A stretch of 64,000 bases of DNA, from the NCBI GenBank assembly GCA_037379345.1, contig CM074520.1, positions 11,449,488 through 11,513,487 of the forward strand. Direction: 5' to 3'. A model generated the notes under the pieces. It made no database searches, was not told where the DNA came from, and saw only the letters and a list, made by a program, of their open reading frames with translations. The stretch's first letter is position 1. Each line of letters starts with the position of its first letter. This DNA comes from Perna viridis. Its lineage: Eukaryota. Positions 1-57,830 of the stretch are shown here, piece after piece. A program made the position numbers and the translations under genes.

Positions 1-1157
1 CGTCTACCTCTGATAATAAACATTGGATATAAAACGTTTTGCAGACAAAAACAATGTTGTTTTGGGCTTGGTCTGCTGGTACGACAACATATTTGTCATG
101 TATAGTAGAAAACTGATGTAGCCTTGGCACTCATTGGCCTATTTAAAACTTTCATTCGTTTCAAAATTAAACACCTTACGGCCTTTAACCACTCTGACAG
201 AGAATCAATGTTCTCGTTTTATCCATTTCCTTCCATAGTCCTCGGCGGCATCCATAAGAACTTTAAAGTTATAATTCCAATTTATGGAGCGTGGTTCACG
301 GTACTTGGGATCTTTAGAGAGGATATTACGCAGAGATTCGTTTTCGATAATGGTTAAATCTCCGGTAACGACGTGACCATAAAGACCATATTTGAATGGA
401 GAGGTTTTGCAAGAACAGTCAGGTGGTTTAGCCTTGAAGTCCTCAATCCCAAGGTTCTACAATAGCCTTTTATAATTGAAAATTTTGGATGCGATGGGTG
501 AAGTATAGAAATATGAAATAATTGGTATGGATTTTTCTTTGAAATATGGGGGGAATTTTGTTGGTAACGTTTTTGTAATGGTGGATGTTAGCCAAATTAA
601 TTGCATCTATACCTTTGTTGACAAACGGTAGTGGAAGAAATGATCGTTTTTCTTCATCTTGACTTTTCACACAAACTGTTTAAAGAGTCTGTGGAAACCA
701 ATATCCAAAATGATGGCAACAAGTCTGTAATAATGATGAGGTGGGGTCAGAAACAGGAGTGTCAAGACTTGTTTTGTAAAGGGAGTGTATTAGAGTCTGA
801 GGTATAGAATAGAGTTTGGTTCTAATGTGATGAAGTCCAAGAGGTTTTTGTATGAAAGGAAGGAGACCATCTATGGAGACATCACGTAACTTAGGTGACG
901 TATAGTGGCGATGGCCATGACTCCTTTCCCGTCTTGGATTTTTGTCAAATAAATTCATCACATTTATGCTATTGTTATATTGGCTTGAAAGGTTTCCTAC
1001 ACTTTTGATGTTATCATTGCATCTGTAAGGTATTGCAGTACCTAGTCTGCGTATCCAGTACTCCTCTCTTTCCCTACGATAGTTTTTACTTAGAAGGGAC
1101 TGTTCGTAGGATGGTAATTTTTTTTCTAAAATACGAACTTTCATGGAGAGGATGAAG
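1..1157 (-). mobile_element. Decayed Penelope-like retroelement with N-terminal GIY-YIG endonuclease (Naiad-like domain order); runs off the window edge
   Basis: Minus-strand translation gives, in order: the end of a GIY-YIG domain (MKVRILEK...REREEYWIRRLGTAIPYRCND), a linker (ASKIFNYK...PPDCSCKTSPFKYGLYGHVVTGDL...KDPKYREP), and the start of RT (HDKYVVVPADQAQNNIVFVCK). Contains frameshifts and one TAG. Confidence 0.85.
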
Positions 1158-1460
1158 AAAATGTTCTAGAACGAAATCTTCAACAAGAAGTGCATGCACC
1201 GGACGGTAATTTAGAAATTAACAACACAAACGCAATAGAAAATAAAGTCGCTAACATCTACTTCCATATCAGCTTATTCTATAGGGTACGTCTGTCACAC
1301 GTAATCCAACGAAAAACTTTATGATTCAACAGTTATGACTTAAACGATTCCAAAATACAATTAATGACTTTTTAATAGGCAGGTGTGTTTTCTTTTGATG
1401 AAAGAACACTCATTCTGTTTAAATATTTTTGATTGTAAAGCTAGTTCCTTCTTCGATATA

Positions 1461-3819: not shown

Positions 3820-4030
3820 AACGGTGTATCCCACTACCCTATGAGAACCGGTTTTGTCATCGTATCATAGTTTTCCTTTCTTCCTTCGTCTAATCCGGAC
3901 TTAAATTTTCATGAGCACTTTGGGGGGTATTTCTAGAAAAGCAGAAGACGCTTTGCCTATCGATACACCTGGTCCATGCTCACAGTTTTTAGTTGAATCA
4001 GAAATGCTCGAATCCTTTTGCTCTAGTGAT
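3820..4030 (+). mobile_element. 3' tail fragment of the PLE family also seen at 7450-8080
   Basis: Shares CATAGTTTTCCTTTC...GCAGA(A/G)GACGC...CACCTG...TGCTC..AGTTTTTAGT blocks with 7830-7945. Confidence 0.65.
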
Positions 4031-4263
4031 TTAATTAAATTCTTCCTATTTTGTATAGTGTCTTATTACAGAGTTTGTAAATATATTTAGTTTTATAGTT
4101 TTACACAATTTTCAAGATCTGCGCACAACGTGTGTCTATTATACAATGTTCAAGATCTTTAATAACTGTCAATACATTTTTCATACGTCGCAGGTATTCA
4201 CCTGATTAGGTATTGAGTTGTATTTACAGACCATTTACTCTCATACACACTCAGTTTATTTAA

Positions 4264-4302
4264 GGCACTGAAGAAGGTCGTTGGTTGACCGAAAATTGTG
4301 CT
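4264..4302 (+). ncRNA. Degenerate minimal type-I hammerhead-like motif in a PLE pseudo-LTR remnant (about 4050-4373)
   Basis: GGCA-CTGAAGA-A-GGTCG(TTGGT)TGACC-GAAA-ATTG-TGCT. Core boxes and stem II are intact. The cleavage position appears to be G, so it is probably inactive. Confidence 0.55.
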
Positions 4303-5671
4303 CATTATATGTTTTATTATAGTATATTAACATACTTTATTGGTATTGTTGTGCAATCTTTCAGACTTATATAATTATTTTGTTTGTCCTGCATCGCCGT
4401 GACTCGAAGATCCGATAACCGTTAAGTTTGCGGGTTGGCAGATTCCTGTAGACTTTATACATTTTTTTCAACTGCCTGTATGGTGTTATTACGCGATCCC
4501 AATAGACTTACAGTAAACTGTTGCGACTACCTTGCTTTAATGCATTTAACTAAAGTGTGTGTTTATTGTCTGAAATATTGTATTCGTATTACGCCGAGCA
4601 TTGCATACAAGGCTAACGTCCAGTCAACTGGAAAAGGTATCAGATAGGTCCGCTAGAATGGGTCAGGGCAGTAACTTTAAAGTGAATAAGTGAATGTGGC
4701 CATTCAATAGATTTAAATTAAAGTATGTAGTACTTAAACAAAGACGAAAATTTTATCCAGTAAGTTTAATCATTATATTTAATGGACAACCGTTTTATCT
4801 TTCCTATCTCGCCGCTTTCAGCTATTGCCCCTTTTGCCCATGACTTAACAATGCTCAGTTGTAGGCTATGCCTAACTCATTTAGCTTTCCAGGATGTGTG
4901 CAATTCCTGTTAATATATCATTTAGACTTGTCATATTTTATGTGCCAAAACTGATTTTATGAAACCAGATGACATCTTAAAATATTTGCGTTATGGCATG
5001 AACAAAAAACATAAGTTTTGATGAAGATCTACATACGCAATGTAGCAAACTGAATAAAACAGATTACACATAAAAATTCAAGACCAGAAAAACAAGATAT
5101 TTCACCACAAAATCAAAGCAATATAGCAATATGAACTCCAACAAAAAGCCAAAAGAGGTATCAGGATCCCCGAAGAGGTAAGCATGTCATCCATTAATAG
5201 TCTAGTAAAAATTATGCAGCATTCCGACACGAGTTACAGAGTGGTTTCTGTAAATTGATTGATTATAAAGCATAAGTATTATTGCATTTTTAAAGTCTAC
5301 TTTCAACCAATCTTTCATTTTGGAACTACTTGTCTAGGTGGCTTAGTTTAGTTTTATTTACATGGCGGTATATATAGACGAACAACTTGCACTGTCAGTT
5401 TGTCGGTTCAATTTCCTTGTATTTCCAAGACCAGCATCAATAAGATCAACTAGATTGTGTTTCCATAGAACTATATTTAATTGCAGGTCAATGGTTTTAC
5501 CGACTTCAATTTATGTACACAGAAAATATTGAAGTGTGTTAAATTCTAAATATTAAAAAGCTAGAATCACATACAGACCTTACTCTAAAATATTGCTCAT
5601 CCAAACATTTAGTCATCTGATAGTATTAAACATTGGAATCAGTCAGTACTTTGAAGTGTTCATTTATATAT

Positions 5672-5813
5672 ACAATAACACTGCACTGACTTGACATAAA
5701 AGTGATATACATATGAGGTTTAAACCCGCGGGAAAATGCAAGACTGTGCGGAAAATTTTCACCGGTTCGAGTCGAACTCGTAAGTTTTTGTCAAGTCAGT
5801 GCACTGTTGTTGT
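5672..5813. mobile_element. Palindromic non-autonomous DNA element (Crypton/MITE-like)
   Basis: 29-bp inverted arms at 5672-5700 and 5785-5813 (26/29 match), with weaker inner complementarity. Confidence 0.6.
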
Positions 5814-6169
5814 TTTTACACTGCATCAAAAATTTCAAATGAAAATGACACTTTAAGCAAGGAAATAACAATTTTTATTTGAAACGGGCGTCATCCTGGC
5901 AAATTCAAACCAATTGAGCGTTTGTGTCGTCGTAACAGAAAAGGTATTGTGGGTCTACTTATCTACAAGTATTTCTCTCCCGCTGCTTAATGGCACAACT
6001 TGAGACGCTCTCGACTGAAAGAGTTGCTTTAAAGTATCAAAAAATAACCTGTTTCTCTTTTTAAGGTATACCTTTAGGACCTCATTATGTATTAATCGTT
6101 TTGTGGATTTGGTATATTTAAGGGATCGGATATTATCAGTAAAAACTTGTCGAGTAAACTGTTAGAGAC

Positions 6170-6365
6170 ATGCAGAGGACGCATACCCTACCAGTGCACC
6201 CTGGCCATGCTCCTAGTTTTTAGTTGAGTGCCGGTTGCTAATTTACTTTTATTTTTTTTACGAAGTTGATGTTCTTCGTTTTGTCTGTATATGTTTTTTG
6301 TATAGTCGCTATCTTTGGATCATGACCTTTTTATTACCGTTCGAATCATAGTTCCATTTATTTTC
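6170..6365 (+). mobile_element. 3' tail fragment of the same PLE family
   Basis: GCAGAGGACGCATACCCTACCAGTGCACC...TGCTCCTAGTTTTTAGTTGAG matches 7884-7945. Confidence 0.65.
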
Positions 6366-7449
6366 CTCTCATGGGATATTAATGTAATGGTATTATTATC
6401 TTGATCTGAACTTCTTATTCCATATCATCAAAATTAAATAAATGACTTTTCTAAATGATACTACATGTAATACGGCATATCTAGCAATTTTTTCCAATAT
6501 TTTTTTCAACACCTTTTACATCGAAACATCTCATTTGTTCTCTGGTTGGTTTTTATGTTTAATTTGACCATTATATTTAATTTTTTTCCCAATATTGTTT
6601 GTATATCCTACATTATCACAATTAATTAATCTGCAGCATTTTTTTTATTTCCAACTGGGTTGGTTGGTTTATATAATGCTGCTTCTCTCGTGTTTTACTA
6701 CGACAGAAAGGAAATAGTTGGAACGCTATTTTATTTCCGATCCCCGCAATTATACAGTATAAAATGGTAAAACAATTAAAATGTTTTCTCAACTAAAATT
6801 GAAATGGCCAGTTCTAATAGTATCAACAAATGCGTATACTGCATTGTTTATAATACAGCGGTTTAAGGAACGGACATTTGTTCCAAACCAAGAAGACAAT
6901 TAAACACTAAGAGGAATTATAGTTAAAAAATAAGGTGTTTTCCCTAACGTTGTCTTATGCAAAAGTTTACAACAAATACTTTTGTTCAAAACGCAAATTA
7001 ATAAATATTCAATCTGCTCCCCCGATTTCATATAGCAAAGCGTTTTTGTTGTTGTGTGTGTGTTTTTTTTTTCCACTAAAGGAAACAAAGTTCAAGTTTC
7101 AGTGTATTTCCAGCATTTGATAAAATGAATATATTTTAAATTAAAGTCTTTCCAGTTCTCTAAATTAGCTGCAGTCCTGTCATATAGTGATTGTAATACT
7201 ATGTCAAACATTGTTTTTGTCTGCAAAACATTTAACATCCAGTGCTTATGATCAGTGGTAGACGCAGAAAATAATAGCAGAAATAACACCTATACTGCCA
7301 CCACACTCTGACAGGTTGGCTTTATAGCTGATCTAATTCAAAGGAAGGAACATCGTTCAGCCAGATCCTAAGATCTCAGTTTCTGCTAAATAGATCATGT
7401 ATTATCGTTAAAAAAAAACTAGTTTAGGAGTTTTGTTCTGCGAATCTAC

Positions 7450-8080
7450 CACAACACCTTGAGATAAAAGACAGTACGGACACTGTAAAGTCAATTATAT
7501 CTTGACATACACTTAGAGATCGATAGTAAATGAAAATTATTGACCAAACTATACGCTAAAAGCGATGACTTTTCATTCATCTGTTGCAACATCCCTTCAG
7601 TACCTGCGTTTGGAGTTTCATATCACAAGTCATACATTATGCCAAAGCTTCCCATAACTACCCATAATTTTTGTATCGCGCTAGGCGTCTTACATTTAGG
7701 CTTCTAGAACAGGTTTAGATTGCTACAACGTTGAAGTCATCTCTACAGAAGTTATATGTTTGTCACCATGAACTCGTGGATCGTTAGCGTGTATCAATCT
7801 GCACCGTAAAACTGGTTTGTTCAACGTGTCATAGTTTTCCTTTCCTCGATCCTGGACTTGACTCGGCGGGTCTTTCTATAATAGCAGAGGACGCTGACCC
7901 TACCGGTGCACCTGCACAGTGCTCTTAGTTTTTAGTGGAGTCCAAGATGCTCCTCACTTTTTTGCTTTGTATGTATTATTTTAGTTATCATATGTTCTTT
8001 GTTGTATGGTTCTGTTTGCAATGCCTGGTCTTGTCCCTGGATTACATTTTTTTTTATTTCTGCTAGAATGTTGCTTATTC
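7450..8080 (+). mobile_element. Decayed C-terminal RT/thumb region and 3' UTR of a PLE with no downstream endonuclease (consistent with Naiad type)
   Basis: Broken frames give EIKDSTDTVKS, YLDIHLEID, TKLYAKSDDF, NIPSVPAFGV and LKSSLQKLYVCHHELVDR, followed by a non-coding tail that recurs elsewhere in the window. Confidence 0.75.
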
Positions 8081-9203
8081 TACAACAAAAATATAGAAGA
8101 CATTGTGAGAATTGTTTGGTTTTTTTATATAACAAAGCAAACAATAGAAATTTTAGTTTATTTCTGCTGTCATCCGCTAATCGAAATAAAAAAAAACCCA
8201 AGTTTTGGTGAGTGATATAATAATAATAATAATAATAAAAATATATTTCTTTTAAAATTTAACTTATAAGATCTGATGCACCAATGACATGTGTCGTCAA
8301 AATTGGATGTTGGTTCTAACAACGCAGACAAAATTGCCTTATTGGCCCCTTCTGAATAAATTTATTCAGATTAATGTAAGCAGCTTTAAAATAATTTGAA
8401 AATGCACAAAATTACTTTTGTATTGGTACTAATAAGGTTAGGTTCATATTTCCAATTAAAAAAACGGGATATTACAATCTTTGTCTCTCGTGAAAACATC
8501 ACTGGTATCGTATCCATTATGATTTCATCTTTCTAAAACGCTTTAACTGCACATATAGGAATGCGTATCTAGTTCCCATTCCTAGTACCGTTTTCAAAAT
8601 AATAATAGTGTAGCTTTTTTACTGATATAGGTACAGGTATAGGTTATTGGTCTATCTGCAAGGACACATATTTTTTTTTTAATTTAGGTGTAATGTGTCT
8701 ATGCAAGTGCCATTGTCATTGAAAATTGATATTTCTTTTGTACCTATTGACATAATAAGCTTGTTGGGATTTTGCAATAAGGGTTAATTATGATTGAACA
8801 TTGAAGATCCATTAATAATAGAAGTGTACATGTGTGTAGACTTAGAAATTAGAAGTCTATACTAATCTTGATTTTCCATACTGCGACATTTATGTTTAAT
8901 CCCTTAGGATGAAAGCCTTGATCTGTGTTCACACAAGATAGGACATGCATCAATTGTACAGCTGGTGTTTATGAAGTCGGTTATATTCACCTGTTTAGGT
9001 CGTGATTTGTGTTCACAGACCATTTACTGCGACGTTTGCATAATATTGATTTTTTGTGACATGCATCATAAATTTGGTCCTCTACCCTACACAATAGCAT
9101 CTAAATGTGCTGTCCCGTACTATCATACATCATGTACTCAGTTACATCCCTAGATTAATCCTACGAGGAGGAATGACCCGGCCAGCGAAAGCTATATTTT
9201 TAT

Positions 9204-9362
9204 ATAGCCTAGCTGGCCGATTGGTCTAGGGTGCTGGACTTTGTGCAGGCGGTGTTGCCATAGATGTCACAGCGGTACGAGTTCGAGTCCCGCGTTGGAA
9301 ACGACCAATAATTTGTATCGCAAATTTGACAGTTCTAACATCGTTGGGAAGTTATCAGATCT

Positions 9363-9365
<3 letters not shown>
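9204..9365 (+). mobile_element. tRNA-headed SINE-like element, copy 1
   Basis: A-box-like TGGCCGATTGG and B-box GTTCGAGTC. Roughly 85-90% identical by eye to the copy at 9505. Ends in (TA)n. Confidence 0.8.

Positions 9366-9407
<42 letters not shown>
9366..9407. repeat. (TA)21 microsatellite
   Basis: Direct reading. Confidence 0.95.
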
Positions 9408-9408
<1 letters not shown>

Positions 9409-9472
9409 CGTCTCAGAATGTGACGACTCTATTTGCTACACTGCTCCATCGGATCAAATTGATACAGGGAAG

Positions 9473-9661
9473 ATATATAAACGTAACGAAAGGTCTGAAA
9501 AATTATAGCCTAGCTGGCCGAGTGGCCTAGGGCGCTGGACTTTATGCAGGCGGTGTTGCCATAGATGTCACAGCAGTACGAGTTCGAGTCCCGCGGAGGG
9601 AACAACAAAAAGTTTGCATCGCAAATTTGACAGTTCTAACATCGTTGGGAATTTTTCAGTC

Positions 9662-9665
<4 letters not shown>
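9473..9665 (+). mobile_element. tRNA-headed SINE-like element, copy 2, with 16-bp inverted terminal segments
   Basis: A box TGGCCGAGTGG at 9515-9525 and B box GTTCGAGTC at 9582-9590, in a tRNA-Leu/Ser-like 5' half. AAAGGTCTGAAAAATT (9489-9504) is the reverse complement of 9650-9665 at 15/16. Confidence 0.8.

Positions 9666-9700
<35 letters not shown>
9665..9700. repeat. (TA)18 microsatellite shared by the SINE-like element and the PLE
   Basis: Direct reading. Confidence 0.95.
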
Positions 9701-9701
<1 letters not shown>

Positions 9702-9703
<2 letters not shown>

Positions 9704-10468
9704 GACAAGAAAAATCCAACACGATTAGATTTTCACGATATATTTATGTATTCACATCACTAGCGCTTTCATGGCTGCTGCCAATCTTCAGGTGACATTA
9801 CATAACGACAACGTAGTTAATGGTAACGTTCTACATATAGTGACGTTAAAATAGTATAAGGGGAGTTAAACATTAACGTCAAAAATGTTAAAATAAAAGA
9901 GAGAAATAAGAGGACATGAAAAATGTTAACGTCCATTCAATTTCGATTTAAATTTACGAATAAACATCATTTCTTTGGTTTCACGTAAATCTTTATCGTT
10001 GTCTCTCAGTTTGTAAAATGGGAAAATTTTAAATCGTCCATCGCTGCATTTATCTAAATACTCACTGACGGGACAAAATCTGTAATTTGGATCTCGGACC
10101 TGTTGTCGATGGACTCTCGTTCGATCAATGACCCTGTCGCCTGTTTCACATTTGCTACATTTTATGCAATAAATTAAATTTGCAGTTTTACAGTTCATGT
10201 CCTCGTTTGCGTAAATAGTGGTTTCATCCCTTGTAGGGATCGAATGTCCTTCGTGTATGTAGTCGCAATTGTTGCAACGTTTGTCCTTGCATTTCGATAC
10301 AGTGAAGCGTTTTTCGGCAGGGTCGAAACGGGCACTTGCAAGTATTGGTTTAAGGTTTTTCGGTTGACGTTTGCTTTGTATTATTTTTTCTTTGTTGATA
10401 TGGACTTTTCGCGATTCGCTTTGTGCTATAATTGGTAAGTTTGCTCTTGCTATTTCAAAAATATTCGG
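9702..10468 (-). mobile_element. 3' part of a Neptune-like Penelope element: linker, C-terminal GIY-YIG endonuclease and pseudo-LTR
   Basis: Stop-free frame 10468-9926 reads PNIF...SKRQPKNLK..L, then KCKDKRCNNC (Cys linker typical of Neptune), then NCKTANLIYCIKCSKC-ETG..R..VH...RETKEMMFIRKF..KLN. The YIG segment is deleted in frame. The 3' end abuts (TA)n. Confidence 0.9.
9754..9798 (-). ncRNA. Minimal type-I hammerhead ribozyme in the PLE pseudo-LTR
   Basis: Minus strand reads ATGTCAC-CTGAAGA-T-TGGC(AGCA)GCCA-T-GAAA-GCGC-TA-GTGATGT: stem I, CUGANGA box, stem II, GAAA, palindromic stem III AGCGCT and a CUA cleavage triplet. Confidence 0.85.
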
Positions 10469-10665
10469 GATGATGTGGACTTTTTATCTCATCTACCTAG
10501 AACAGTCAGGGAAGAGGCAATAATGGTTAGCTTCGACGTTATCAGCCTATACACAAATATACCCCATAACCTAGGTATTAATGCCGTAAAATATTGGATA
10601 GAAAAGCATCCTGAAGCAATTGATAATCGTTTTACCGCTGACTTAATATTGGAATCAGTTAGTTT
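10463..10665 (+). mobile_element. Inverted PLE reverse-transcriptase fragment
   Basis: IRDDVDFLSHLP...MVSFDVISLYTNIPHNLGINAVKYW is the PLE RT motif A region, in opposite orientation to the adjacent endonuclease part. Confidence 0.9.
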
Positions 10666-11040
10666 GGAAGATTGAAGATTGAAGACTGAAGATTGGCAGC
10701 AGGGAAGTAGATAATACGATGTATTCAATATTGGAACCAGCCAATGCCTCGTCAACAAGCATTTCTTGGCTACGTACCTTGCAGGACCAGGAATCTGAAA
10801 ATGAGTGTTTTGCCTCTAAACTGTGTATAACCAACTGCAATATCAAAATCAGAAATTTGAGTTGTCCTGTGTCAAGGTCCCTAAGCATATTACCATGCTT
10901 TTCAGTGTGAGTATTGATGTTTAAAATCATAATGGAATCACCTGAGACACTCACGTCTGAAAGAGCTGCTTTTAAAACTATTGAAAGAAAAATCCTGGCT
11001 TTTTTATCTTTTGCTCTAAATAAAGTTAAGGAATCCTTAT

Positions 11041-24024: not shown

Positions 24025-26724
24025 CTGAGTATTTAAGGAACTGTTGGATTTGAATGTCACCAGGCCTGTACTGTTGGATACTGTTGAAGGGAATGTCATC
24101 GACAGGGTATTTTCTTGTTCTTCATCCATAGAGAAACTGACTTCCTTCTTAGGAACTTCATAACAATCCATGATGCGGTCCTGTGAACCTCTTGAAGAGG
24201 AGGATCTATTACTGCTTCCTCGCTTCAAGTCGACTATTCTCATATGTTCAGCAGATGTAGCACTGTAAACATGTTTTCGAGAGTCCATTTTACGAATAAC
24301 ACAAATTGTTATAATTATAAGAATCGAAAGAAGTGCAGTCACACAGCCAATAACTATAGCAATAATGATGTTCTGACCAGCCCCTACATCTTTGATACCA
24401 GCAACAGTTGTTACATTAATAAACTTGACGTTGATGATGAGGACTTCATGCATACTTTGTTGAGGACTGCCTTGGTCCTGTGCAGCAACAGTCAGTTCAT
24501 AGTTCCTTATTTCATAAATGTGTAGTTTACGCTTTAAAAATATTTCTCCTGATTTACTGTCTAAATAGAACAGTTCATCATCATTTCCATTTATAATAGA
24601 ATAACTTACTGAGCCATTATCACCCAAGTCAGGATCAATAGCAGATAAAGTTGTGACTAAGGTATCAGAATTGGCTAAGTACTCCAGAATAATGGAATTA
24701 TTTGTAGAATTAGGGAATTTAAAGGTAGGTGCATTGTCATTCAGGTCAAGAACTTTGACTGTAACTTTTGCTGAACTGGTCAGTTGGTTCATGCCAAGGT
24801 CAACTGCAAGAATATCAAAAGTATATAGATCCTTCATTTCTCTATCCAGCTCCTCTATTATTGTGATCATGCCATCAATTGACATTGAAAAAGGAAGGTA
24901 ATTTGCTTGGTTTTTCAGACGGAATGTGACAACACCATTATCAAGCCCATCAGGATCATCAGCAATCACTTGTCCAATCAAACCCTTCTGATTTTCTACA
25001 ACATCAAAACGATAATGATAATTTGAGAATTGTGGGGCATTGTCATTCTCATCTTCAATGTCAATCTCAACTGTGGCTGTAGAAGTAAAAATCTTGCTTC
25101 CTCCATTATCAGTTGCAAGTACAAAGAAAGAATAAAGTGTTCGATTCTCTCTGTCAAATGAAATTCTACTCTTGATGATGCCAGTATTAGGTTCAATAGA
25201 GAACTCATTAAGTACACTGTGACTGAGCTGGTACGTAACAACAGCATTAGATCCTTGATCAGCATCTGTAGCACTAACCTTTGTTATGTACGTATTTGGA
25301 AGTTTATTCTCAGTGACTTTGGCCTTGAAAAGTTGCCTTGTGAACTGAGGGGCATTGTCATTTACATCTTCCACCTGCACAATAAAACTTTTGGTATTAT
25401 TCCTTTTAGGTGTACCTCCATCAGAACATGTGACAGTAATCACATGTTCATCAATGACCTCTCTATTCAACATACCATGAACAACAATTTTAAATTCATT
25501 TTCTGCAAATTTTTCTAACCTGAAGTAATCATTGTTAACAGAGCATGAGGCAATTTTATTGACCCCTTGATCAGCATCATTGACATGAACAAACGCTATA
25601 ACAGTTCCATTGGATGTATTTTCTTTAACTAGTGCATAGTCACTACCTCTGACAAATGTTACTTCAATGATCGGATCATTGTTATTGACATCCAAAACAG
25701 TTATAGAGATCACAGCCTGGCTACTAAGTTGATTCTGTCCATGGTCTGTAGCTTCAATAATTACTTTATAGGGCTCAACTGGTATGACTGTTAATGGGCG
25801 TTTGACAAAAAGTTCACCAATATTTCCCACAGTTCCTGAAACTGTTCTGACCCCAAACAACTGTGAGACAGATGGATTTTGTTGTCGTGAACTTAACTCA
25901 TAATTCACCTTGCCATTGTCACCCTCATCCTCATCAGAAGCAGATAGAGTAAGAAAGACTTGATTAACGGTAATATTTTCGTTGATAATGACGTCATATT
26001 GTTCACCACTGAATGTTGGCTTATTATCATTAACATCAGTAACAGTAATATTGACCATAAGCATTCCAGTTTTTGGTGGGTTGCCCCCATCCTTAGCCAC
26101 TATAAATAGCTGATAATAGTCTTTCGTCTCAAAATCAAGAGGAGTCAGTATTCTCAAACTCAAATCTGATGATCCATCCAGTTTTGGATGAACGTCTAAG
26201 GCAAAAATATTTTTAAAATCAGGAACTATTTCATAAGTTTGAACAGAATTATTTGTACCCCTATCAGGGTCAACAGCTCCCTTCAGTGTTATCGTTGTAT
26301 TTGCAGGTAGATTTTCTCTAAGACTTAATGCTACTGAGGGTTTCTCAAATGATGGAGAGTTATCATTGACATCAATAATATTTACTGTAATATTTATACT
26401 ATAGGAGACTGATCCTGCAGCAGCTCCGACACGGAACCACTGTACACAGACAGTCTTAAAAGGGCACAGTGATTCTCTGTCTAGTTTACGTTTAGTACTT
26501 AACACACCAGACACTGATTCTAGTTCAAAGTTACCAACACTTCCGATAAAGACATATGTTATTCCTGTGGTCGATGAAAGATTTGAGTCTTGCCCTACAT
26601 TTCCAACGATGACACGAGGTTCCAATTCTTCTCGGATGGAGTAATGTAACTCAATACCAGCTTGACACACAATAAGTCCAAAATAAGACGAAATGATGAA
26701 GAAGAAAATTTTTAAGTTATCCAT
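24025..26724 (-). CDS. Protocadherin (delta-1-like, 7 EC repeats), large coding exon: signal peptide, EC1-7, TM and proximal tail. Spliced product about 1168 aa
   Basis: Six DxN(D/N)N linkers and seven repeats. EC1 has the protocadherin DRExLCx5C signature (DRESLCPFKTVC). TM is IIIAIVIGCVTALLSILIIITICVI. Donor CAG|GTAATA falls after codon 900. The exon begins at acceptor TTTTCAG|G 26770 with an in-frame stop before the ATG, so upstream exons are non-coding. Confidence 0.97.
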
Positions 26725-26734
26725 TTTTCTGTCT

Positions 26735-26746
26735 TTACTTTACCAT
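26735..26746 (-). promoter_or_regulatory. uORF (M-V-K-stop) in the protocadherin 5' UTR
   Basis: ATA-ATG-GTA-AAG-TAA ends 10 nt before the main ATG, with A at -3 and G at +4. Confidence 0.6.
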
Positions 26747-48000: not shown

Positions 48001-51000
48001 ATCTAAAACAAGGCATAGTTTGGATCAAACAAATGGTCTAAACTGATATGCTACCTATGGCTCCATTAGTATTTCTTACCAAAGATACAAAGAATTCTGA
48101 ACTTTCTACTTGCTGAAAATATATAGAATCTTTGACTGTATATTACCACCAGACAGACCTTCAAAACTATAATATAGGTTAGTATTCAAGACATGCTTTT
48201 GATCACCTTTCACAAAGATTCCATTTATACTTCATGGAATATGATTATGAAATTAAGTTATCAGCAGGGAAAGTGTAGATTTGTCTATATTTAACAGGCA
48301 TCAGGCAGTGTTATGTCAATCAGTTGATAACCAATATCAGCCTAACAGAATTCCATGTAAGAAACTTTATCTAAATCTGACACAATACTCAAATTTCAGT
48401 AAAAAAATCCTAAAAACACTTTCCTGAGAAAGTATTTTAAGCCCAGTACCAGACAAAGTAATATCACTTAAGTTCTGGCCAATTACCCTCAAATTAGTCA
48501 AAAGCATACCCTGCCTTTAGTGCTGTATCAGATTGTAAGATAACATGGTTTCTTGTGAGATAAATTTCACTGATAGATCATGTAGTAGATAATCTCATTA
48601 AGATAATCTGGGAACATGTGGAGAGATACATGTATTGGTGGATGTTACAGTGGAGTGGAATCTAGTTACAATCATTCCTAGATGTGTAAGAATTGTTCTA
48701 GACATTAGCAACTACATGTATGTGTGGGCAATGGAATTTCTCCTCATCTGGTCACACAAGGACTTTCTTTTATGTAGATAAAGGAAGCATGTTAACTTTC
48801 TTTTCGATTTCCTTAATATCATTTGTCTACCTTTCTTCAGATACTAGTATTTGTTTCTGTTTTTTTTTGTTTTTATAATCTTACTACTTTAACATTTTTA
48901 ATGACAAAATCTCTTATTTTTTTTCTTCCAAACAAAAAGTGAAATGAATTAGCCTTTCCAGCAAATTATATCTGCAATGTATCTGCAGATCTTAAAATGA
49001 AGCTTTCTAATTTGAGGATACTAGACTCTCATGAAAAAGATACATGTAACACAATATTTCAGCTCAACACTGATCAGAATATAATTTACTAAAGTGTGCA
49101 ACTTACAGTATTACAAAAAGTGTTAAGTGTCAGTCCCTAGAATTAGTAAGTAGGTGAAACATGATTTGAAAAAAAAAAAAAAAACATCATTTTGATGTGT
49201 AATTACACTGTTTGCACCACCAGAATCAAGAAAAACAGACCAGATTTTCCATATTATGCTGGACCATTGCATTACAATTTCATTGAAATGCACTGAAAAT
49301 GAACATTTCAAGGTAGATAACTCTGTCAAAACATCATTTTTCAAAGGTTCTATTGAAAAATTTCTGAGCAAAGCCAACAATGCAGAGATAAAATAATGGT
49401 AATTTCAAACAGAGAAAGCATCCTTGCGTTATATTTTATTTTCAGATCAGTGGGTTTTTAATATGCATGTTTCTGATTTTTTTCATTTTGCCTGATACTT
49501 ACAAAAACTTACACTTAAGTGTCATTTATAAGAAACCTCTGTTTAATCTTTATGAAAGGAAAAACATTTTAGACACATGAACTCCCCATTTATCATGATG
49601 TGATCTAAGTTTACCAAGTACCTAAATTAGAAAAACAAATAATTTGCTGTCACTTAAAATTTTCAGCTTCCAAATCTCAGTTCTGGTCACATTTAGAGTA
49701 CTGTTGGTAAACACATGGTCTACTTAGCACCTAGGTGTAACCTAGATAATGAACTCGCTTTAACCTTAAAAGGGGAGATTACTCATTGTTTGATACCTTT
49801 TATTGCTGTCATTGTCTTTAAGGTTTTAAAATGGGGCCTATAAAGGGTAAAAAAAGAACTTAAGCATCAGATTTTATCAGAGAAAATGATTGAGTAATTA
49901 AAGATTCTTTCTAAGGTAAATATTTTAAGGAAAGCACTGGATTGACCTATTAAATACCAATAATTAAATGAAAACATTTCCTAAATTAACCAACCCAAAA
50001 TGTCCCTAATTTCAAGGAGAGTTAAAGACACTCATTTGAGTCTAATAAACTACAAAATTGATAGATCATTTTCATACTTTAATGTTGAAAGAAAGGCTCA
50101 TACATTTAACTAGATTTATAGATGCTATACCTTGGTTTAAATACCTGAAATAAATCTCTATCAAAAGACCACTTATAACCTTTGAAAAATTAATTAAAAT
50201 AAATTGAAAAATGATTGAAATTTCTCTATTTTGTTGTATCATATAAGGTATAGATGGCAGCTTTCACTGAAAATTACATCATTTTTCCACATACACAAAA
50301 GAGGTTGTATTCATCATACCAGCTCAAGTTTCTAATCAATTGGTGGATGTTAACACTGGTGATGGGATAACTATGATATGATGTATCATCTGAACATGAT
50401 CGGGACAAGAAAGATATAATGACAACGTAATGGTCAATTATCTTAACTTAAAATTCAATTTCGTAATTTAATATTTCGTATGAAGATGGGATTTTCTGAC
50501 AAAAAAGTAAAGAAACTTATCATCTTAAGCTAACCTTGTACTGAAATGTTCGATATAAAAGCTGGATCATATAACTATTTGTTAAAATATTAATGATTTT
50601 AACTATTTTTGAATACATATACAGTGTCATGGTTTTCCTGTTAAAAGTTGGTAGATAAACACAATGGATATTATCTTGTACGTTTTCTATACATCCAAAT
50701 AGTTGCATTATTATTTGTTATATATATATTTTCTTGCTGAATTTTATAATTGATAAAATTATCTCCTTGGTGTGAAACAGAAAGAAAGAAGTGCAGAACA
50801 AGTAAAATAGAATATTAAGTAAATTTAGATAATATTCAGAAAATCTAGATAAAGCCTCATTGGAATTGACCTACGGTATGTATTTTTTCCCTTAAATTCA
50901 ATTTAAAAATTGGATTTATTTTGTCAGTATTTCAAGTTTAACTATCTAACTAAAAAATATCAATGGCAATTAACCATTAGGATATAATCATTCATTCTGT

Positions 51001-53899
51001 AATCCACTGTCCAATAATTCCCCCAGCCCAAGTCCTATGAGTAACACCTAAATGAAAATTGACAGAGTTCCCATTCTTGCTTTTAGACCCAAGTTTTCAG
51101 TTTATTGGATTAATAAACGCTGTAGGAATTTCCAAGATAAATGCTTGTAAAAGAAATGTGAAAACGGCATTATAAGCTTCTTCAAGCTAATTGAATTTAC
51201 ATTATAAATGAGAAAGCTTGACAAGACTGATCTAATACAAGGGACAGATGATCTAACAATATTATGGTTTCCTACTGTAAAAAAATGCATTCATTTTCAG
51301 AAAACAAGATTTCTGTAAATGATGCTGCCTGAAGCCATGGATAAAGATAACAATATCTGATGTTATATCATCACTCAAAATTATAAAATTGACAAATAGA
51401 TTAATTGACTTGGGAAATAGTTTTGGTGAAAACCTCTAGCGTTGAAATTGGCTTCTGTGCAGCTTTCAGTGTTAAAGATTCTATGATTCTCAAACACATC
51501 AAAGAAAATGTGCTAATGTCTCAACACAGATTTCAAGGCAATTCAAAGAAGCATTTTCTTGCAGAAGTTCTTAGGACCTAAGGATTTGCTATAAAGGTTT
51601 TGTAAATACCATCTAATAACTTAAAATAAGTAAATTAACAATATTCTACACGACTAGCTATTTACAATCTCAAACTTTAAATTGCAATATAAGACCTTGC
51701 AACAATTATACATTTGAGGTGGGAAATAAATCAATCCTAAGAGAATGTGGAATTAATCCATATGTTTCAGGTCAAAGAAGACTACCAGTCATTAAAAACA
51801 CATCAAATTTCAATCTTGAGATAATCAAACTTCTGTAAAATTCCTTTAATTAGCTATCAAACCATACCATTGATCTCTACCATGGCTGGTGTATCAATCA
51901 TAACATTAACATTTCTATGTTTATTCAGTAACTGATGGATTAAAAACATTTGGCTGTCATTTTAATATATAAAGATAAACCACAGGTGATGGAGTTTTTT
52001 TCTGAAGTTTCTCTGGAATCTAATTAGATTGTAATTTGTTGGTATATCAAATAGTTAATTATAGTATGATTGATATAGCATAGTCTTGGTTTTTCTTATT
52101 CAATTAGAACTTTTTATGATCCAAATCCATAAAAAATCTTTCATCTAAGACTTCATCCCCCCTTTTTATTACTGGAAACTAGTAGATGTATTATAGCAAC
52201 TCTTTATAGCTGTTCAATGTAATTATATTTTGACACATACAACCATTGTAACTTTTTTATATAATTCTCTGGGGAAAGGCATTCATTTCTTTCTTCTCAC
52301 TAAACCCTATGCAAGATGTATCAATGAACATTTTTTTAATTAAAACAGTAAAAGTTATCAAAGATTTTTAAAAATATAATCAATGAAGATTAAAACATTA
52401 AGTTACTTTTTAAATCTGAAATTTATGCATATTTTACTTGCAACACTCCCTCTCCACAAATATTGCAAAAAGTATGATAAAATAATTAATAAAAGAGTTG
52501 AAAAGTTTTTATACTTACCAATAGAAAGATAAAATCCAGAATTCAATAACTGTCAACAAGTCAATAAAACAAACATCAATTAAAATAAATCCATCACAAT
52601 TCACTTTCACCACGCTGAGGATATAAACTTTATCTTTTACTATGATTTTCTTTTACTATTTGTCACAGATGAACAACCCTCTACCTTGGTCATGTGATCT
52701 CATGATTATTCATGTATTCTTTATCAATTCTATTTGATATATCAGAGAATGTTTTGTTAGGTTAAATTTAGTATTATATCAAGATATCATGATAATAATC
52801 TTTAATAATTTAATTGTGAAGGTTATAAGATAACTCACCTTTCTAATATAAGCAGTGAGAAAAATAAATCTGTTATAGTTAAATTATCTAATACAGAAAT
52901 TTTTTTTTTTCATATGATCAGAGATTTACTCTTAATATAAACAGAATGATGTTAATATAACATATATCAAAATTCATTTTATTTTTTATTGCATAAAAAA
53001 ATGCTTCAAATGTACTGAACATTTTTGTGCATTTTTTTTTCAGATTATAAAAGAAAAGTACAAGCAGTGTTTAATTTTTTAATACATTCTGTAGTATGCT
53101 TTCTATAATACTGAACCCCTTTGTACCCGATTCTTATATTCATTGCCATAAATTGTTATTTATCAAAAGAAATTATGTAAACTAATTTTATCAATTAATT
53201 TGACAACTTCAAAAGTTAAGAACTAAGAAGCATCATAACCCAGAGAAAATTTATTACCCTTCTGTATAAACAGTTATATGTTTATGCTTATAGCAAAACA
53301 AGCTGAGTTTGTTTTCTTTATCGTATATACACACAGAAAAATATTCATGGCTATTTCCTCTGATCTTGTACTCTATGAATGAAAAAACTAGTCTGGCACC
53401 AGGCATATCATGGTTTCAGAATAACACCCTTGTTAATTCATATAACTTCAGACTTGTCAAAACAATTTCACCAATTTTCATGCAATAAATAGGGTTTTTG
53501 TACTCAAAAATGTATTTATGATATAAATATTTATCAGCCAAGAGCTGTTGATACTTCACAGAAAATAAACAGCTACTTAGAATCATGCACAGTAATAGGG
53601 CAGGTTACATACTTCAGGGAACATCATTTACTCAGGGAAATGGGGTGTAGCCAATTATTACTGATGTATGTGACAAATGTATCTGTCTTTTTTCTTAAAC
53701 TTTCTCATAAAAGTTTTAAAGGACAGAATTTAGCTCTGTGTTTTCCTACAAGGCTCTAAGAATGCAAGTTTGACAGAAGTTAGCACTTCATCACAAAATG
53801 ATTCATAACTGGTTATTATATTTTTTTTCCTATCAATATTTTTATTCCAAGTCAGTTTTCCACCAATTTGAAAAAAAAACAATAAACCATCCTCAAACA

Positions 53900-54077
53900 G
53901 AAATCAAGGGAGCCAAGATTCTAGCAGAAATCAAAAGAATGTAATCCAGGGACAAAGACCAGACATGAAAACAGACACATACAGCAAAAAACATAAATAA
54001 AAAACAATATTAATACATACGATGTAACAAAAGTAAATGAGCAACTCAGACTCCACTAAACACTGAGAGCATGGACT
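53900..54077 (-). mobile_element. PLE-family 3' tail fragment
   Basis: Reverse complement matches 7920-8075 (CATGCTCTCAGTGTTTAGTGGAGTC...GTCTTTGTCCCTGGATTACATT). Confidence 0.75.
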
Positions 54078-54590: not shown

Positions 54591-55722
54591 TGCCGGGATT
54601 TCTAGATGAATAGAGATCTACAATTAGTCTTTTACTTTGATGATCATTTAAATTGGACTTTAGGATCATAATTAAGTGTCAGGCTAATGGGAAAAATCAG
54701 AAACAAGCATGTAAAAAAGCACTGATCTAACAATATAATTTCACTTAAGGATGCTTCCTCTATTTCATAGACCACTATTTGATCTCTGCATTTGCTCAAA
54801 AAATTTTCAATAGAAAGTTAGAAAAATGAGGCTTTTGACAGAGTTATCTGAAATGTTCATTTGCATTGCATTTGAATAAAAGTATAACTCGGTTAACCAA
54901 AATTATATGGAAAATCTGGTCTTTTTTCTTTGATTCTTATGGGGCAAATAGTCAAATTTAACTCAAAAGGCTGTTTTTTTATAACATGTTTCACCCACTG
55001 CCAGATTCTAACAGAGAATTACAATTAACATTTTCAAGGTTTTAAGCCTAATTTCATGTCAGTTAGTCCTGAACTTTATAAATCTAAAGAAAAAGGTTTG
55101 AAAGTCTATTCAGAATCCATAACGTGGTAATTGAGGAAAACAGTCATTGATGAGAGTGCAGATAATTATTTCTAGCTGCAGAAATCAACCATGAAACCCC
55201 CCTCCCCTTAACAAGTGAATCTGACCAGAAAAAACATATAGATAGCAGTATAAAAAGAACCAGCAATTTGTTCATTTTGTGGCTCGTTTAAAAGTGTACA
55301 TCTATTATAGCCAAAACATTATGGCAGATTTTGCAAAGATTCTACTCTGACAACATAAAGTTTTGTTAACTAGCCCAGAGAAAATTATCAATAAAGGAAG
55401 TGAACTATCCAAACCCCATAATTTGTCAATTTTGTGGTTCATCAGCTAACTTCTAACAATTGATATAGGTGCAGATTAAACCAGGTATATAACCAACAAG
55501 TACAGAAATATATAACCAGAAACTTAACTGATCATTAAATCGAGCAATCATAAATTTAAAACTTAAGCAGGCTTGCAGAAAATTGGATTTACCACCAAAT
55601 GCGGCAGTGCTTCCTTCCATGTTGTGGGTTGCATGAGAGGCTTGTATTTCACTGAAGGTAATAAATTTTTAACTTAAAGAGGTTTGTAATAATGTGTAAT
55701 GATAGGATGATGTAAGTTTTAT

Positions 55723-57627: not shown

Positions 57628-57701
57628 AATAACCCTATATTATAATTATTACTGAAAGAGGATGAATATTTGATACTTCCTTTGTCTTACATGGTGATGC
57701 A

Positions 57702-57830
57702 TTGGGCTGATATGTTATATAAGACTTTTGTTGTCTCACTTGCATTGGGTTGATATTTTATATAAGACTGCTGTTGTCTCGCATGCATTGTTTTGATATT
57801 TTATATAAGATTTCTGTTGTCTCACATGTA
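57702..57830. repeat. Minisatellite, 3 x 43 bp
   Basis: Unit approximately TTGGGTTGATATTTTATATAAGACTTCTGTTGTCTCACATGCA, at 57702, 57745 and 57788. Confidence 0.85.

What the first reader, a model, noticed from the sequence alone, without database searches (positions are those of the whole stretch)
9204..9726. tRNA-headed element with a Penelope-like 3' end and (TA)n target: candidate PLE-mobilised SINE
Seen: two copies of a Pol III A/B-box element end in ATCGTTGGGAATTTTTCAGTCCTT(TA)n, not in polyA or a recognisable LINE tail. The hammerhead-bearing remnant at 4345-4373 ends ATTGTTGTGCAATCTTTCAGACTTATATA. The Neptune-like PLE ends (minus strand, 9725-9702) ATCGTGTTGGATTTTTCTTGTCAGA(TA)n in the very same TA tract. 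Established: SINEs borrow the 3' end and target preference of their partner retroelement, normally a LINE. Inference: this SINE may parasitise microsatellite-targeting PLEs. The similarity is short and AT-rich, so it is suggestive only.
Basis: partly seen in the sequence, partly recalled or inferred. Interest (0 to 1): 0.75.

Follow-up and report, generated by a model that had tools for sequence, protein, structure and literature searches.

The report
Penelope-parasite repeat with Pol III boxes
This is an abundant, roughly 400-base mussel repeat that carries a tRNA-type promoter motif inside it rather than at its head and sits here in TA microsatellites beside Penelope-like retroelements, which likely copy it; it would then be a SINE-like parasite of Penelope elements rather than of LINEs.

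Summary
The two A/B-box copies, their (TA)n tracts and both PLE ends are real, but the quoted 3' end fits copy 2 only. The tRNA-like part (A, 162 nt) is usually preceded by window 9041-9202 (C) and often runs on into the reverse complement of the spacer 9408-9487 (B); RNA reads join B to C. The unit is about 400 nt and permuted (A-B-C-A), not a tRNA-headed SINE. Roughly a third of A ends run into TA. Insertion 9408-9665 is an inverted truncated copy abutting a direct copy, with 15/16 inverted ends, as described for PLE insertions. Copy 2's end resembles both PLE ends above chance (1 of 1229 controls each); copy 1's barely does. No hammerhead and no LTR primer site were found, and a T5 run would stop Pol III early. 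Best reading (0.55): a non-autonomous, TA-targeted PLE parasite whose pseudo-LTR holds Pol III boxes, organised like Schistosoma SM-alpha but without a ribozyme. No genome was available, so the partner is unproven.

The parts
8984..9028 (+). Piece of a decayed PLE-type 3' region into or beside which insertion 1 landed
   Evidence: 87% over 45 nt to 4195-4239, which lies 30 nt upstream of the remnant's hammerhead
9027..9202 (+). Segment C (about 9041-9202) preceded by about 10 nt resembling the end of segment B; part of the repeat unit, upstream of the box region
   Evidence: Loose ends before 9504 in all 4 runs resemble 9173-9202 (RNA consensus 30 of 30 letters); RNA loose ends before 9402 match the reverse complement of 9043-9072 at 28 of 30
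9176..9225 (+). Strong hairpin across the C|A junction (end of C is an inverted near-copy of the start of A)
   Evidence: -26.1 kcal/mol, z -5.3, 0 of 200 shuffles as stable; family-wide by the loose-end consensus
9203..9365 (+). Segment A, copy 1: A box 9214-9224, B box 9281-9289, PLE-like 3' tip (diverged; T run mutated)
9366..9407 (.). (TA)21 tract between insertion 1 and insertion 2
9408..9504 (-). Inverted, 5'-truncated copy: last 16 nt of A (9504-9489) followed by segment B (9487-9408), ending at the TA tract
   Evidence: 15 of 16 inverted match to 9650-9665, the only such match in the window; opposite-strand joints 9475 to 9655-9670 in all 4 runs
9504..9665 (+). Segment A, copy 2: A box 9515-9525, B box 9582-9590, T5 run 9652-9656, PLE-like 3' tip 9641-9665
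   Evidence: 27,695, 15,007 and 1,907 contigs and 2,898 RNA reads laid on 9400-9675
9665..9701 (.). TA tract (37 nt) shared tail-to-tail by insertion 2 and the Neptune-like PLE
9702..9925 (-). 3' UTR of the Neptune-like PLE with a minimal hammerhead at about 9795-9757
   Evidence: core found at 9791 with a 4-bp stem II; stem I predicted
9926..10468 (-). Broken C-terminal part of the PLE protein: Cys-rich linker and GIY-YIG region, with a 6-residue gap where the relative has its second catalytic triplet
   Evidence: 55% to P0001 residues 512-698; P0001 has RVT_1 (just under cut-off) and GIY-YIG
10463..10702 (+). Inverted 5' part of the same PLE insertion: reverse transcriptase piece 10463-10660 and a 17-nt copy of the hammerhead start at 10686-10702
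   Evidence: 64% to P0001 residues 215-280; 17 of 17 match to 9775-9791
4195..4373 (+). Second PLE-type 3' end: hammerhead core at 4268, end at 4367 followed by three TA units; closest match to the element's tip

Best explanation
The two copies are pieces of an abundant, roughly 400-nt non-coding repeat (order A-B-C-A, Pol III boxes in A) that is likely copied by the reverse transcriptase and GIY-YIG nuclease of a TA-targeting Penelope-like element, with segment A likely serving as its pseudo-LTR. Shown: the unit order, its abundance, TA tracts at A's end in 2 of 2 window copies, an inverted truncated copy joined to a direct copy, and above-chance similarity of A's tip to two PLE ends. Inferred: a read-through RNA spanning a partial tandem (A-B-C-A-B) is bound by the PLE protein; the nuclease nicks a (TA)n tract; reverse transcription starts inside the RNA, mostly at A's tip and sometimes further on in B (a 'tail'); premature ends and template switches give 5'-truncated, tandem and inverted copies. 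Inferred and weakest: the A/B boxes of an upstream A act as promoter for the next unit, as in SM-alpha; the T5 run near A's end means this needs Pol III read-through, or else Pol II supplies the RNA and the boxes are a passenger.
For:: loose ends before 9504 resemble C in 4 of 4 runs (190, 170, 29 contigs; 304 RNA reads; agreement 0.50, 0.49, 0.57, 0.68); loose ends behind 9670 resemble the start of B in 4 of 4 runs (62, 42, 10, 83) with opposite-strand joints at the same place; 182 + 149 RNA reads join B to C. Depth in 9670-9675 over 9660-9669 is 0.28, 0.33, 0.12 and 0.47, so A ends split between TA and B, as a pseudo-LTR at both ends of a unit would give. 81 RNA reads (agreement 0.88) show a copy cut at 9521 with a TA run on its 5' side; 15/16 inverted ends around 9489-9665; the neighbouring PLE has the same inverted 5' layout; tip similarity; no control 30-mer of 1229 reaches the summed score of copy 2 (44); the third natural copy of the tip matches the remnant at 11 of 12 and carries the family's majority letter at 9660 (98%). 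PMC8557442 passages describe partial tandems, an adjacent inverted 5'-truncated copy, a tail at one end, (TA)n targets, and non-autonomous families with pLTRs, head-to-tail insertions and 3' similarity. PMC11167929 shows internal initiation on AT-rich targets without need of hammerhead cleavage.
Against: No genome, so no insertion was read end to end beyond the two here; no listed contig spans the laid stretch. The tip match is about 20 nt, chosen after the fact, weak for copy 1 (65 of 1229 controls reach its summed score) and absent between the two PLE ends. B is 80 nt, longer than the 30-40-nt tails described. The B-to-C link is clear only in RNA reads, which may come from few loci; in two DNA runs the consensus there is mixed (agreement 0.51, 0.53) and the third has no row among those shown. 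In organism B few A ends run into TA (0.12). The laid stretch ended after five TA units, so an internal variable TA run is not excluded for the family. No hammerhead in 9020-9670. The T5 run argues against a Pol III template. RNA reads lie on both strands about equally with no sharp start or end.
Confidence: 0.55

Rival explanations
1. An ordinary LINE-mobilised SINE of order A (head), B (body), C (tail) that forms tandem arrays by recombination; the TA runs are expansions of an internal TATA that PLEs then hit.
For: A has the boxes at its start, as a SINE head would; bivalve SINEs form tandem and palindromic arrays (PMC11481361 passages); half or more of A ends continue into B.
Against: A T5 run closes A before B; C ends in no poly(A) or simple repeat and is usually followed by A; 2 of 2 window copies stop at A's tip in TA and neither tract is followed by B's start; the inverted copy is unexplained.
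Confidence: 0.15
2. A Helenus-like TRIM: LTR = C + A + 8 nt holding the tRNA-like part, internal part = B, moved by a Gypsy element.
For: LTR-internal-LTR gives the same A-B-C-A adjacency; the family reads show TGTA at C's start and TACA 8 nt past A's tip, like the TGT...ACA ends of bivalve Helenus LTRs (supplement part 6); Helenus occurs in Mytilidae.
Against: B begins with no TGG primer site and ends in no purine tract on the box strand, whereas the bivalve Helenus internal parts I read by eye have both; the LTR would be about 330 nt against a longest Helenus LTR of 323; both window copies stop short of the supposed LTR end; 0 of 4 short words found in the Helenus supplement.
Confidence: 0.1
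3. A rolling-circle (Helentron/HINE-type) or satellite-like repeat that captured a tRNA-like piece; hairpin, TA run and tandem units belong to that mechanism (features recalled, not from a call).
For: Strong hairpin at 9176-9225, tandem adjacency and a TATA at each segment junction.
Against: The hairpin is internal to the unit, not subterminal in insertion 2; it does not explain the match to hammerhead-bearing PLE ends or 5' truncation with inversion.
Confidence: 0.1
4. A composite of unrelated TA-targeting fragments that piled up in one TA tract and was then spread passively (segmental or tandem amplification); the PLE-like tip is a captured relic with no role.
For: All three junctions contain TATA; in organism B part of B (9407-9455) is about eight times deeper than the rest of the stretch, so B is a module shared with another family.
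Against: Thousands of distinct contigs, many with long unlike flanks (median loose length 74-80 nt in X3), and separate truncated insertions point to dispersed retrotransposition.
Confidence: 0.1

Closest known systems
Schistosoma SM-alpha / Sj-alpha SINE-like repeats (review passages, PMC6765202)
   Same: Short non-coding unit, Pol III promoter at the 3' end of the monomer, tandem copies in which the upstream unit would transcribe the next.
   Different: SM-alpha carries a hammerhead that cuts the multimer; none was found here. A TA target and a PLE-like tip are not mentioned in the passages seen.
Non-autonomous Chlamys PLEs such as MRC1 (PMC8557442 passages)
   Same: Non-coding, pseudo-LTRs, head-to-tail copies, 3' similarity to autonomous PLEs, microsatellite targets, mostly no canonical hammerhead.
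   Different: Algal, N-terminal-nuclease clade, (CA)n or (C)n targets; no Pol III boxes mentioned in the passages seen.
Animal non-LTR retrozymes (PMC7229834 passages; bioRxiv 10.64898/2026.07.22.740005 part 1 and passages)
   Same: Units of 350-390 bp in Mytilus, tandem, proposed to be moved by PLEs.
   Different: Defined by a type I hammerhead in each unit (absent in the window copy); no tRNA-type promoter described.
Helenus TRIMs (PMC10886601)
   Same: tRNA-like A/B boxes inside a terminal repeat rather than at a free head; present in Mytilidae.
   Different: True LTRs with TGG primer site, purine tract and 4-bp duplication; Gypsy partner. No primer site or purine tract here.
Bivalve HCD tRNA-SINEs: Meta, V, MD, Core, Deu (PMC11481361 passages and supplement search)
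   Same: A/B boxes, microsatellite tails, tandem and palindromic arrangements.
   Different: Head at the 5' end, tails from CR1, CR1-Zenon, L2 or Nimb LINEs; the main text has 0 occurrences of 'Penelope'; 0 of 5 short words from this element found in 8 supplementary files (which may not hold the consensus sequences).

Membership tests
Canonical tRNA-SINE | [quoted passage not shown] | tested here: met
   Box pairs only in the two copies (motifs recalled)
Canonical tRNA-SINE | Head recognisably derived from a tRNA | tested here: inconclusive
   ARAGORN 0 genes; no tRNA among 29 Rfam matches at E<=10; no cloverleaf, z -0.23 and 1.02
Canonical tRNA-SINE | Promoter region is the 5' end of the element | tested here: not met
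   Segment C precedes it as the consensus loose end in 4 of 4 runs and in window copy 1; copy 2 does start there
Canonical tRNA-SINE | 3' tail shared with a LINE | not testable with these tools
   No genome and no LINE library
Canonical tRNA-SINE | Target site duplication of 6-18 bp | tested here: inconclusive
   Ends lie in TA tracts, which hide duplications
Canonical tRNA-SINE | Discrete Pol III transcript | not testable with these tools
   Only a cDNA RNA-seq run was laid: both strands, no sharp ends; T5 at 9652-9656
Non-autonomous PLE | Partial tandems forming pseudo-LTRs | tested here: met
   A-B, B-C and C-A junctions in reads, A ends split between B and TA; inferred from junctions, no full copy read
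Non-autonomous PLE | Inverted 5'-truncated copy at the 5' end giving inverted repeats | tested here: met
   1 of 2 window insertions, 15/16 arms
Non-autonomous PLE | Microsatellite target | tested here: met
   2 of 2 window copies; depth ratios 0.28, 0.33, 0.47 in organism A runs, 0.12 in organism B
Non-autonomous PLE | 3' similarity to an autonomous PLE | tested here: inconclusive
   Above chance for copy 2 against 2 of 2 hammerhead-bearing ends, weak or absent for copy 1; only two ends available
Non-autonomous PLE | 30-40-nt tail at one end | tested here: inconclusive
   B (80 nt) sits at one end of insertion 2 but is longer
Non-LTR retrozyme | Type I hammerhead in each unit | tested here: not met
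   0 relaxed cores in 9020-9670 on both strands; the same scan found both PLE hammerheads. One copy of C only
Helenus TRIM | Primer-binding site (TGG...) right after the LTR | tested here: not met
   By eye against supplement part 6 of 11 and B
Helenus TRIM | Purine tract before the 3' LTR | tested here: not met
   None on the box strand at B's end; an 8-purine run lies on the other strand
Helenus TRIM | TG...CA termini with 4-bp duplication | tested here: inconclusive
   TGTA and TACA occur at the B|C and A|B junctions in reads, but no window copy ends there
Neptune PLE (neighbour at 9702-10702) | C-terminal GIY-YIG with CX2-5CxxC linker and hammerhead in the 3' repeat | tested here: met
   linker definition
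Neptune PLE (neighbour at 9702-10702) | RT groups with Neptune rather than Nematis | not tested
   No tree built; only 66 RT residues remain

The most novel reading that the evidence does not exclude
A SINE-equivalent for Penelope-like elements: a tRNA-type Pol III promoter placed in a pseudo-LTR and fused to a PLE recognition tip, spreading to thousands of TA microsatellites in mussels with no ribozyme and no LINE partner, the PLE counterpart of Cassandra and Helenus among LTR elements.
Probability: 0.35. Interest if true: 0.7.

Novelty: new variant of a known kind. Interest (0 to 1): 0.55.

Why it matters
SINE partners described in the bivalve papers I saw are all LINEs. A Pol III-box element moved by PLEs would add a partnership, and would pinpoint a roughly 20-nt cis signal for PLE recognition, which is testable with the in vitro PLE system now available (PMC11167929). 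It also warns that SINE finders and short-read curation will cut such a family at the box region and mislabel it. Non-autonomous PLE parasites as such are known (retrozymes, MRC1, short non-autonomous Penelope elements in butterflies), so the gain is a variant, not a new class.

Tried and rejected
No whole genome is held. Exact-pattern scans for the element found nothing: viral contigs, prokaryote genomes, metagenomes. A pattern from B gave 3 loci, all matching over the 17-18 pattern letters only, rejected as chance. Scans for loci of the PLE protein: 0 confirmed of 7, 108 and 232 candidate stretches, so no further PLE ends were obtained. Rfam: only TA-driven chance hits; it also missed both minimal hammerheads. 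No RNA holder listed in the run index. Three look-ups in earlier findings returned nothing. The end of B does not resemble A's tip (4571 and 4996 of 5000 shuffles as good). Six pieces of another repeat family in the window score only 12-16 against copy 2's end. A MITE reading was rejected because the 16-nt inverted repeat is explained by the inverted copy and copy 1 lacks it. A hammerhead reading of the GAAA at the end of C was rejected: no catalytic core upstream. Supplement searches for short words found none in the Helenus, bivalve SINE or MetaSINE files (2 of 3 files searched); line breaks, genus differences or missing sequence files can hide matches.

Full report
Setting. The window is 31.7% G+C and holds a protocadherin gene whose best named relative is from Mytilus coruscus at 66% identity, next Pinctada at 42%, so the host is likely a mytilid mussel outside Mytilus. 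No whole genome is held, so family-level evidence comes from one lay of four public runs.

Observation. Two copies, 9203-9400 and 9504-9701, are 91% alike. Each has A- and B-box motifs, and no other place in the window has such a pair (motifs recalled). Neither ARAGORN nor Rfam calls a tRNA, so tRNA ancestry rests on the boxes alone. Both copies end in the only long TA tracts of the window. The PLE on the minus strand is real: 55% to residues 512-698 of P0001, a protein with RT and GIY-YIG domains, with a minimal hammerhead 89 nt from its end. It is 5'-inverted: an RT piece lies on the plus strand at 10463-10660. The remnant at 4195-4373 has a hammerhead core 99 nt from its end.

Is the end similarity more than chance? 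The last 30 nt of copy 2 score 22 against each PLE end; 13 and 38 of 5000 shuffles and 1 of 1229 TATA-preceded 30-mers reach that in each case; 0 of 1229 reach the summed score. Copy 1 gives 131 of 5000 against the remnant and 3263 of 5000 against the Neptune-like end; the two PLE ends do not match each other (4250 of 5000). The family's majority letter at 9660 (98%) agrees with the remnant, and a third natural copy of the tip at 9489-9504 matches it at 11 of 12. The match is real for the family tip against the remnant, short, and chosen after the fact.

The element is larger than reported. I laid 4 of the 24 listed runs on 9400-9675 at 80% likeness: 27,695, 15,007 and 1,907 contigs and 2,898 of 10.35 million RNA reads. 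Three junctions emerge; the tables show only the best-supported rows (24 loose-end rows shown, 1089 not). First, loose ends before 9504 resemble window 9173-9202, the sequence upstream of copy 1, in all four runs (190, 170, 29, 304 records; agreement 0.49-0.68; RNA consensus 30 of 30 letters). Second, loose ends behind 9670 (62, 42, 10, 83 records) and opposite-strand joints from 9475 to 9655-9670 show A running into the reverse complement of the spacer. Third, 182 + 149 RNA reads join the far end of the spacer to the reverse complement of 9043-9072; in two DNA runs this consensus is mixed. The unit is thus C (162 nt), A (162), B (80), about 400 nt, joined A-B-C-A, with TATA at each junction and a strong hairpin across C|A (z -5.3). 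Depth in the last bin over the one before is 0.28, 0.33 and 0.47 in organism A runs and 0.12 in organism B: a minority to a half of A ends run into TA, the rest mostly into B. These ratios are rough; contig depth is no copy number and TA-rich records may be filtered out.

Anatomy in the window. Insertion 1 is C-A-(TA)21, starting just after a piece that matches the remnant PLE's 3' region (8984-9028). Insertion 2, 9408-9665, is an inverted piece (A's last 16 nt plus B) joined to a direct A, with TA on both sides; the inverted arms match at 15 of 16, the only such match in the window. Craig et al. (PMC8557442; passages; supplement word search) describe this for PLEs: partial tandems forming pseudo-LTRs, an adjacent inverted 5'-truncated copy giving inverted repeats, a tail at one end, TA targets, and non-autonomous families with head-to-tail copies and 3' similarity.

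Mechanism. Shown: unit order, abundance, TA ends, inversion, tip match. Inferred: a read-through RNA over a partial tandem is bound by a PLE protein that nicks TA tracts and starts reverse transcription inside the RNA, as shown in vitro for an anole PLE where hammerhead cleavage was not needed (PMC11167929, parts 1-2 of 4). The role of the boxes is open: a T5 run at 9652-9656 would stop Pol III about 10 nt before the tip (established terminator rule, recalled), and the RNA reads lie on both strands with no sharp ends. Confidence 0.55. Rivals: tandem-prone LINE-driven SINE (0.15), Helenus-like TRIM (0.1), rolling-circle or satellite repeat (0.1), passive composite (0.1).

Comparison. It works most like Schistosoma SM-alpha, whose Pol III promoter lies at the 3' end of the monomer (review passages, PMC6765202), and like MRC1. 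It fails the retrozyme test: no hammerhead core in 9020-9670 while both PLE controls were found (retrozyme papers: passages of PMC7229834; part 1 of 5 and passages of the 2026 preprint, supplements closed; passages of PMC4209133). It fails Helenus on primer site and purine tract (PMC10886601: passages, parts 2-3 of 6, supplement search and part 6 of 11). It fails the 5'-head test of a canonical SINE. Bivalve SINE work lists LINE partners only (PMC11481361 passages and supplement search; PMC10294476 passages; PMC4824008 supplement search only; PMC4758252 listing only).

Novelty. Ten paper searches showed no description of a Pol III-box, hammerhead-less PLE parasite; most hits were seen as listings only, the library lacks many subscription papers, and Repbase and Dfam could not be searched. 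Short non-autonomous Penelope elements are mentioned for butterflies (PMC6685494 passage). Verdict: a new variant of a known kind, interest 0.55; the bolder reading, a SINE-equivalent for PLEs, has probability 0.35 and would merit 0.7.

Noticed in passing
window 9702-10702: The Neptune-like PLE is 5'-inverted: GIY-YIG part on minus, RT piece on plus from 10463, then a 17-nt copy of its hammerhead start preceded by short repeats.
   Followed up: partly
window 9407-9455, run X11 (organism B): This part of segment B is about eight times deeper than 9460-9500, with 66 contigs leaving at 9455: B's distal half seems shared with another, more abundant family in a related species.
   Followed up: no
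window 8740-8920: Frameshifted text resembling the end of a GIY-YIG domain by eye, upstream of the piece shared with the 4195 remnant; no tblastn support.
   Followed up: partly
window 4268-4305: The remnant's hammerhead has G at the cleavage position by eye, so it is probably inactive.
   Followed up: no
window 1-1165 (minus); 1-58 repeated inverted at 7207-7264: Broken ORFs that look like a Naiad-type PLE with N-terminal nuclease (label recalled; no Pfam hit).
   Followed up: no
window 3935-3996, 6166-6227, 7878-8073, 12813-12883, 53895-54071, 60174-60214: Six pieces of one further repeat family, recalled as the 3' region of Naiad-type elements; not tested.
   Followed up: partly
window 5665-5818: 34-nt inverted arms (85%) around 84 nt, starting at a short TA run, with a 13-of-14 match to the B-box region of the element on the minus strand: possible MITE-like element.
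   Followed up: no
window 23989-26739 (minus): Single-exon cadherin region of a protocadherin, seven cadherin repeats.
   Followed up: partly
window 49117-49501 and 54673-55034; 57698-57878; 6649-6895 and 12086-12331: A 389-nt inverted repeat pair (74%), a 43-nt tandem repeat, and a 250-nt dispersed repeat (70%).
   Followed up: no
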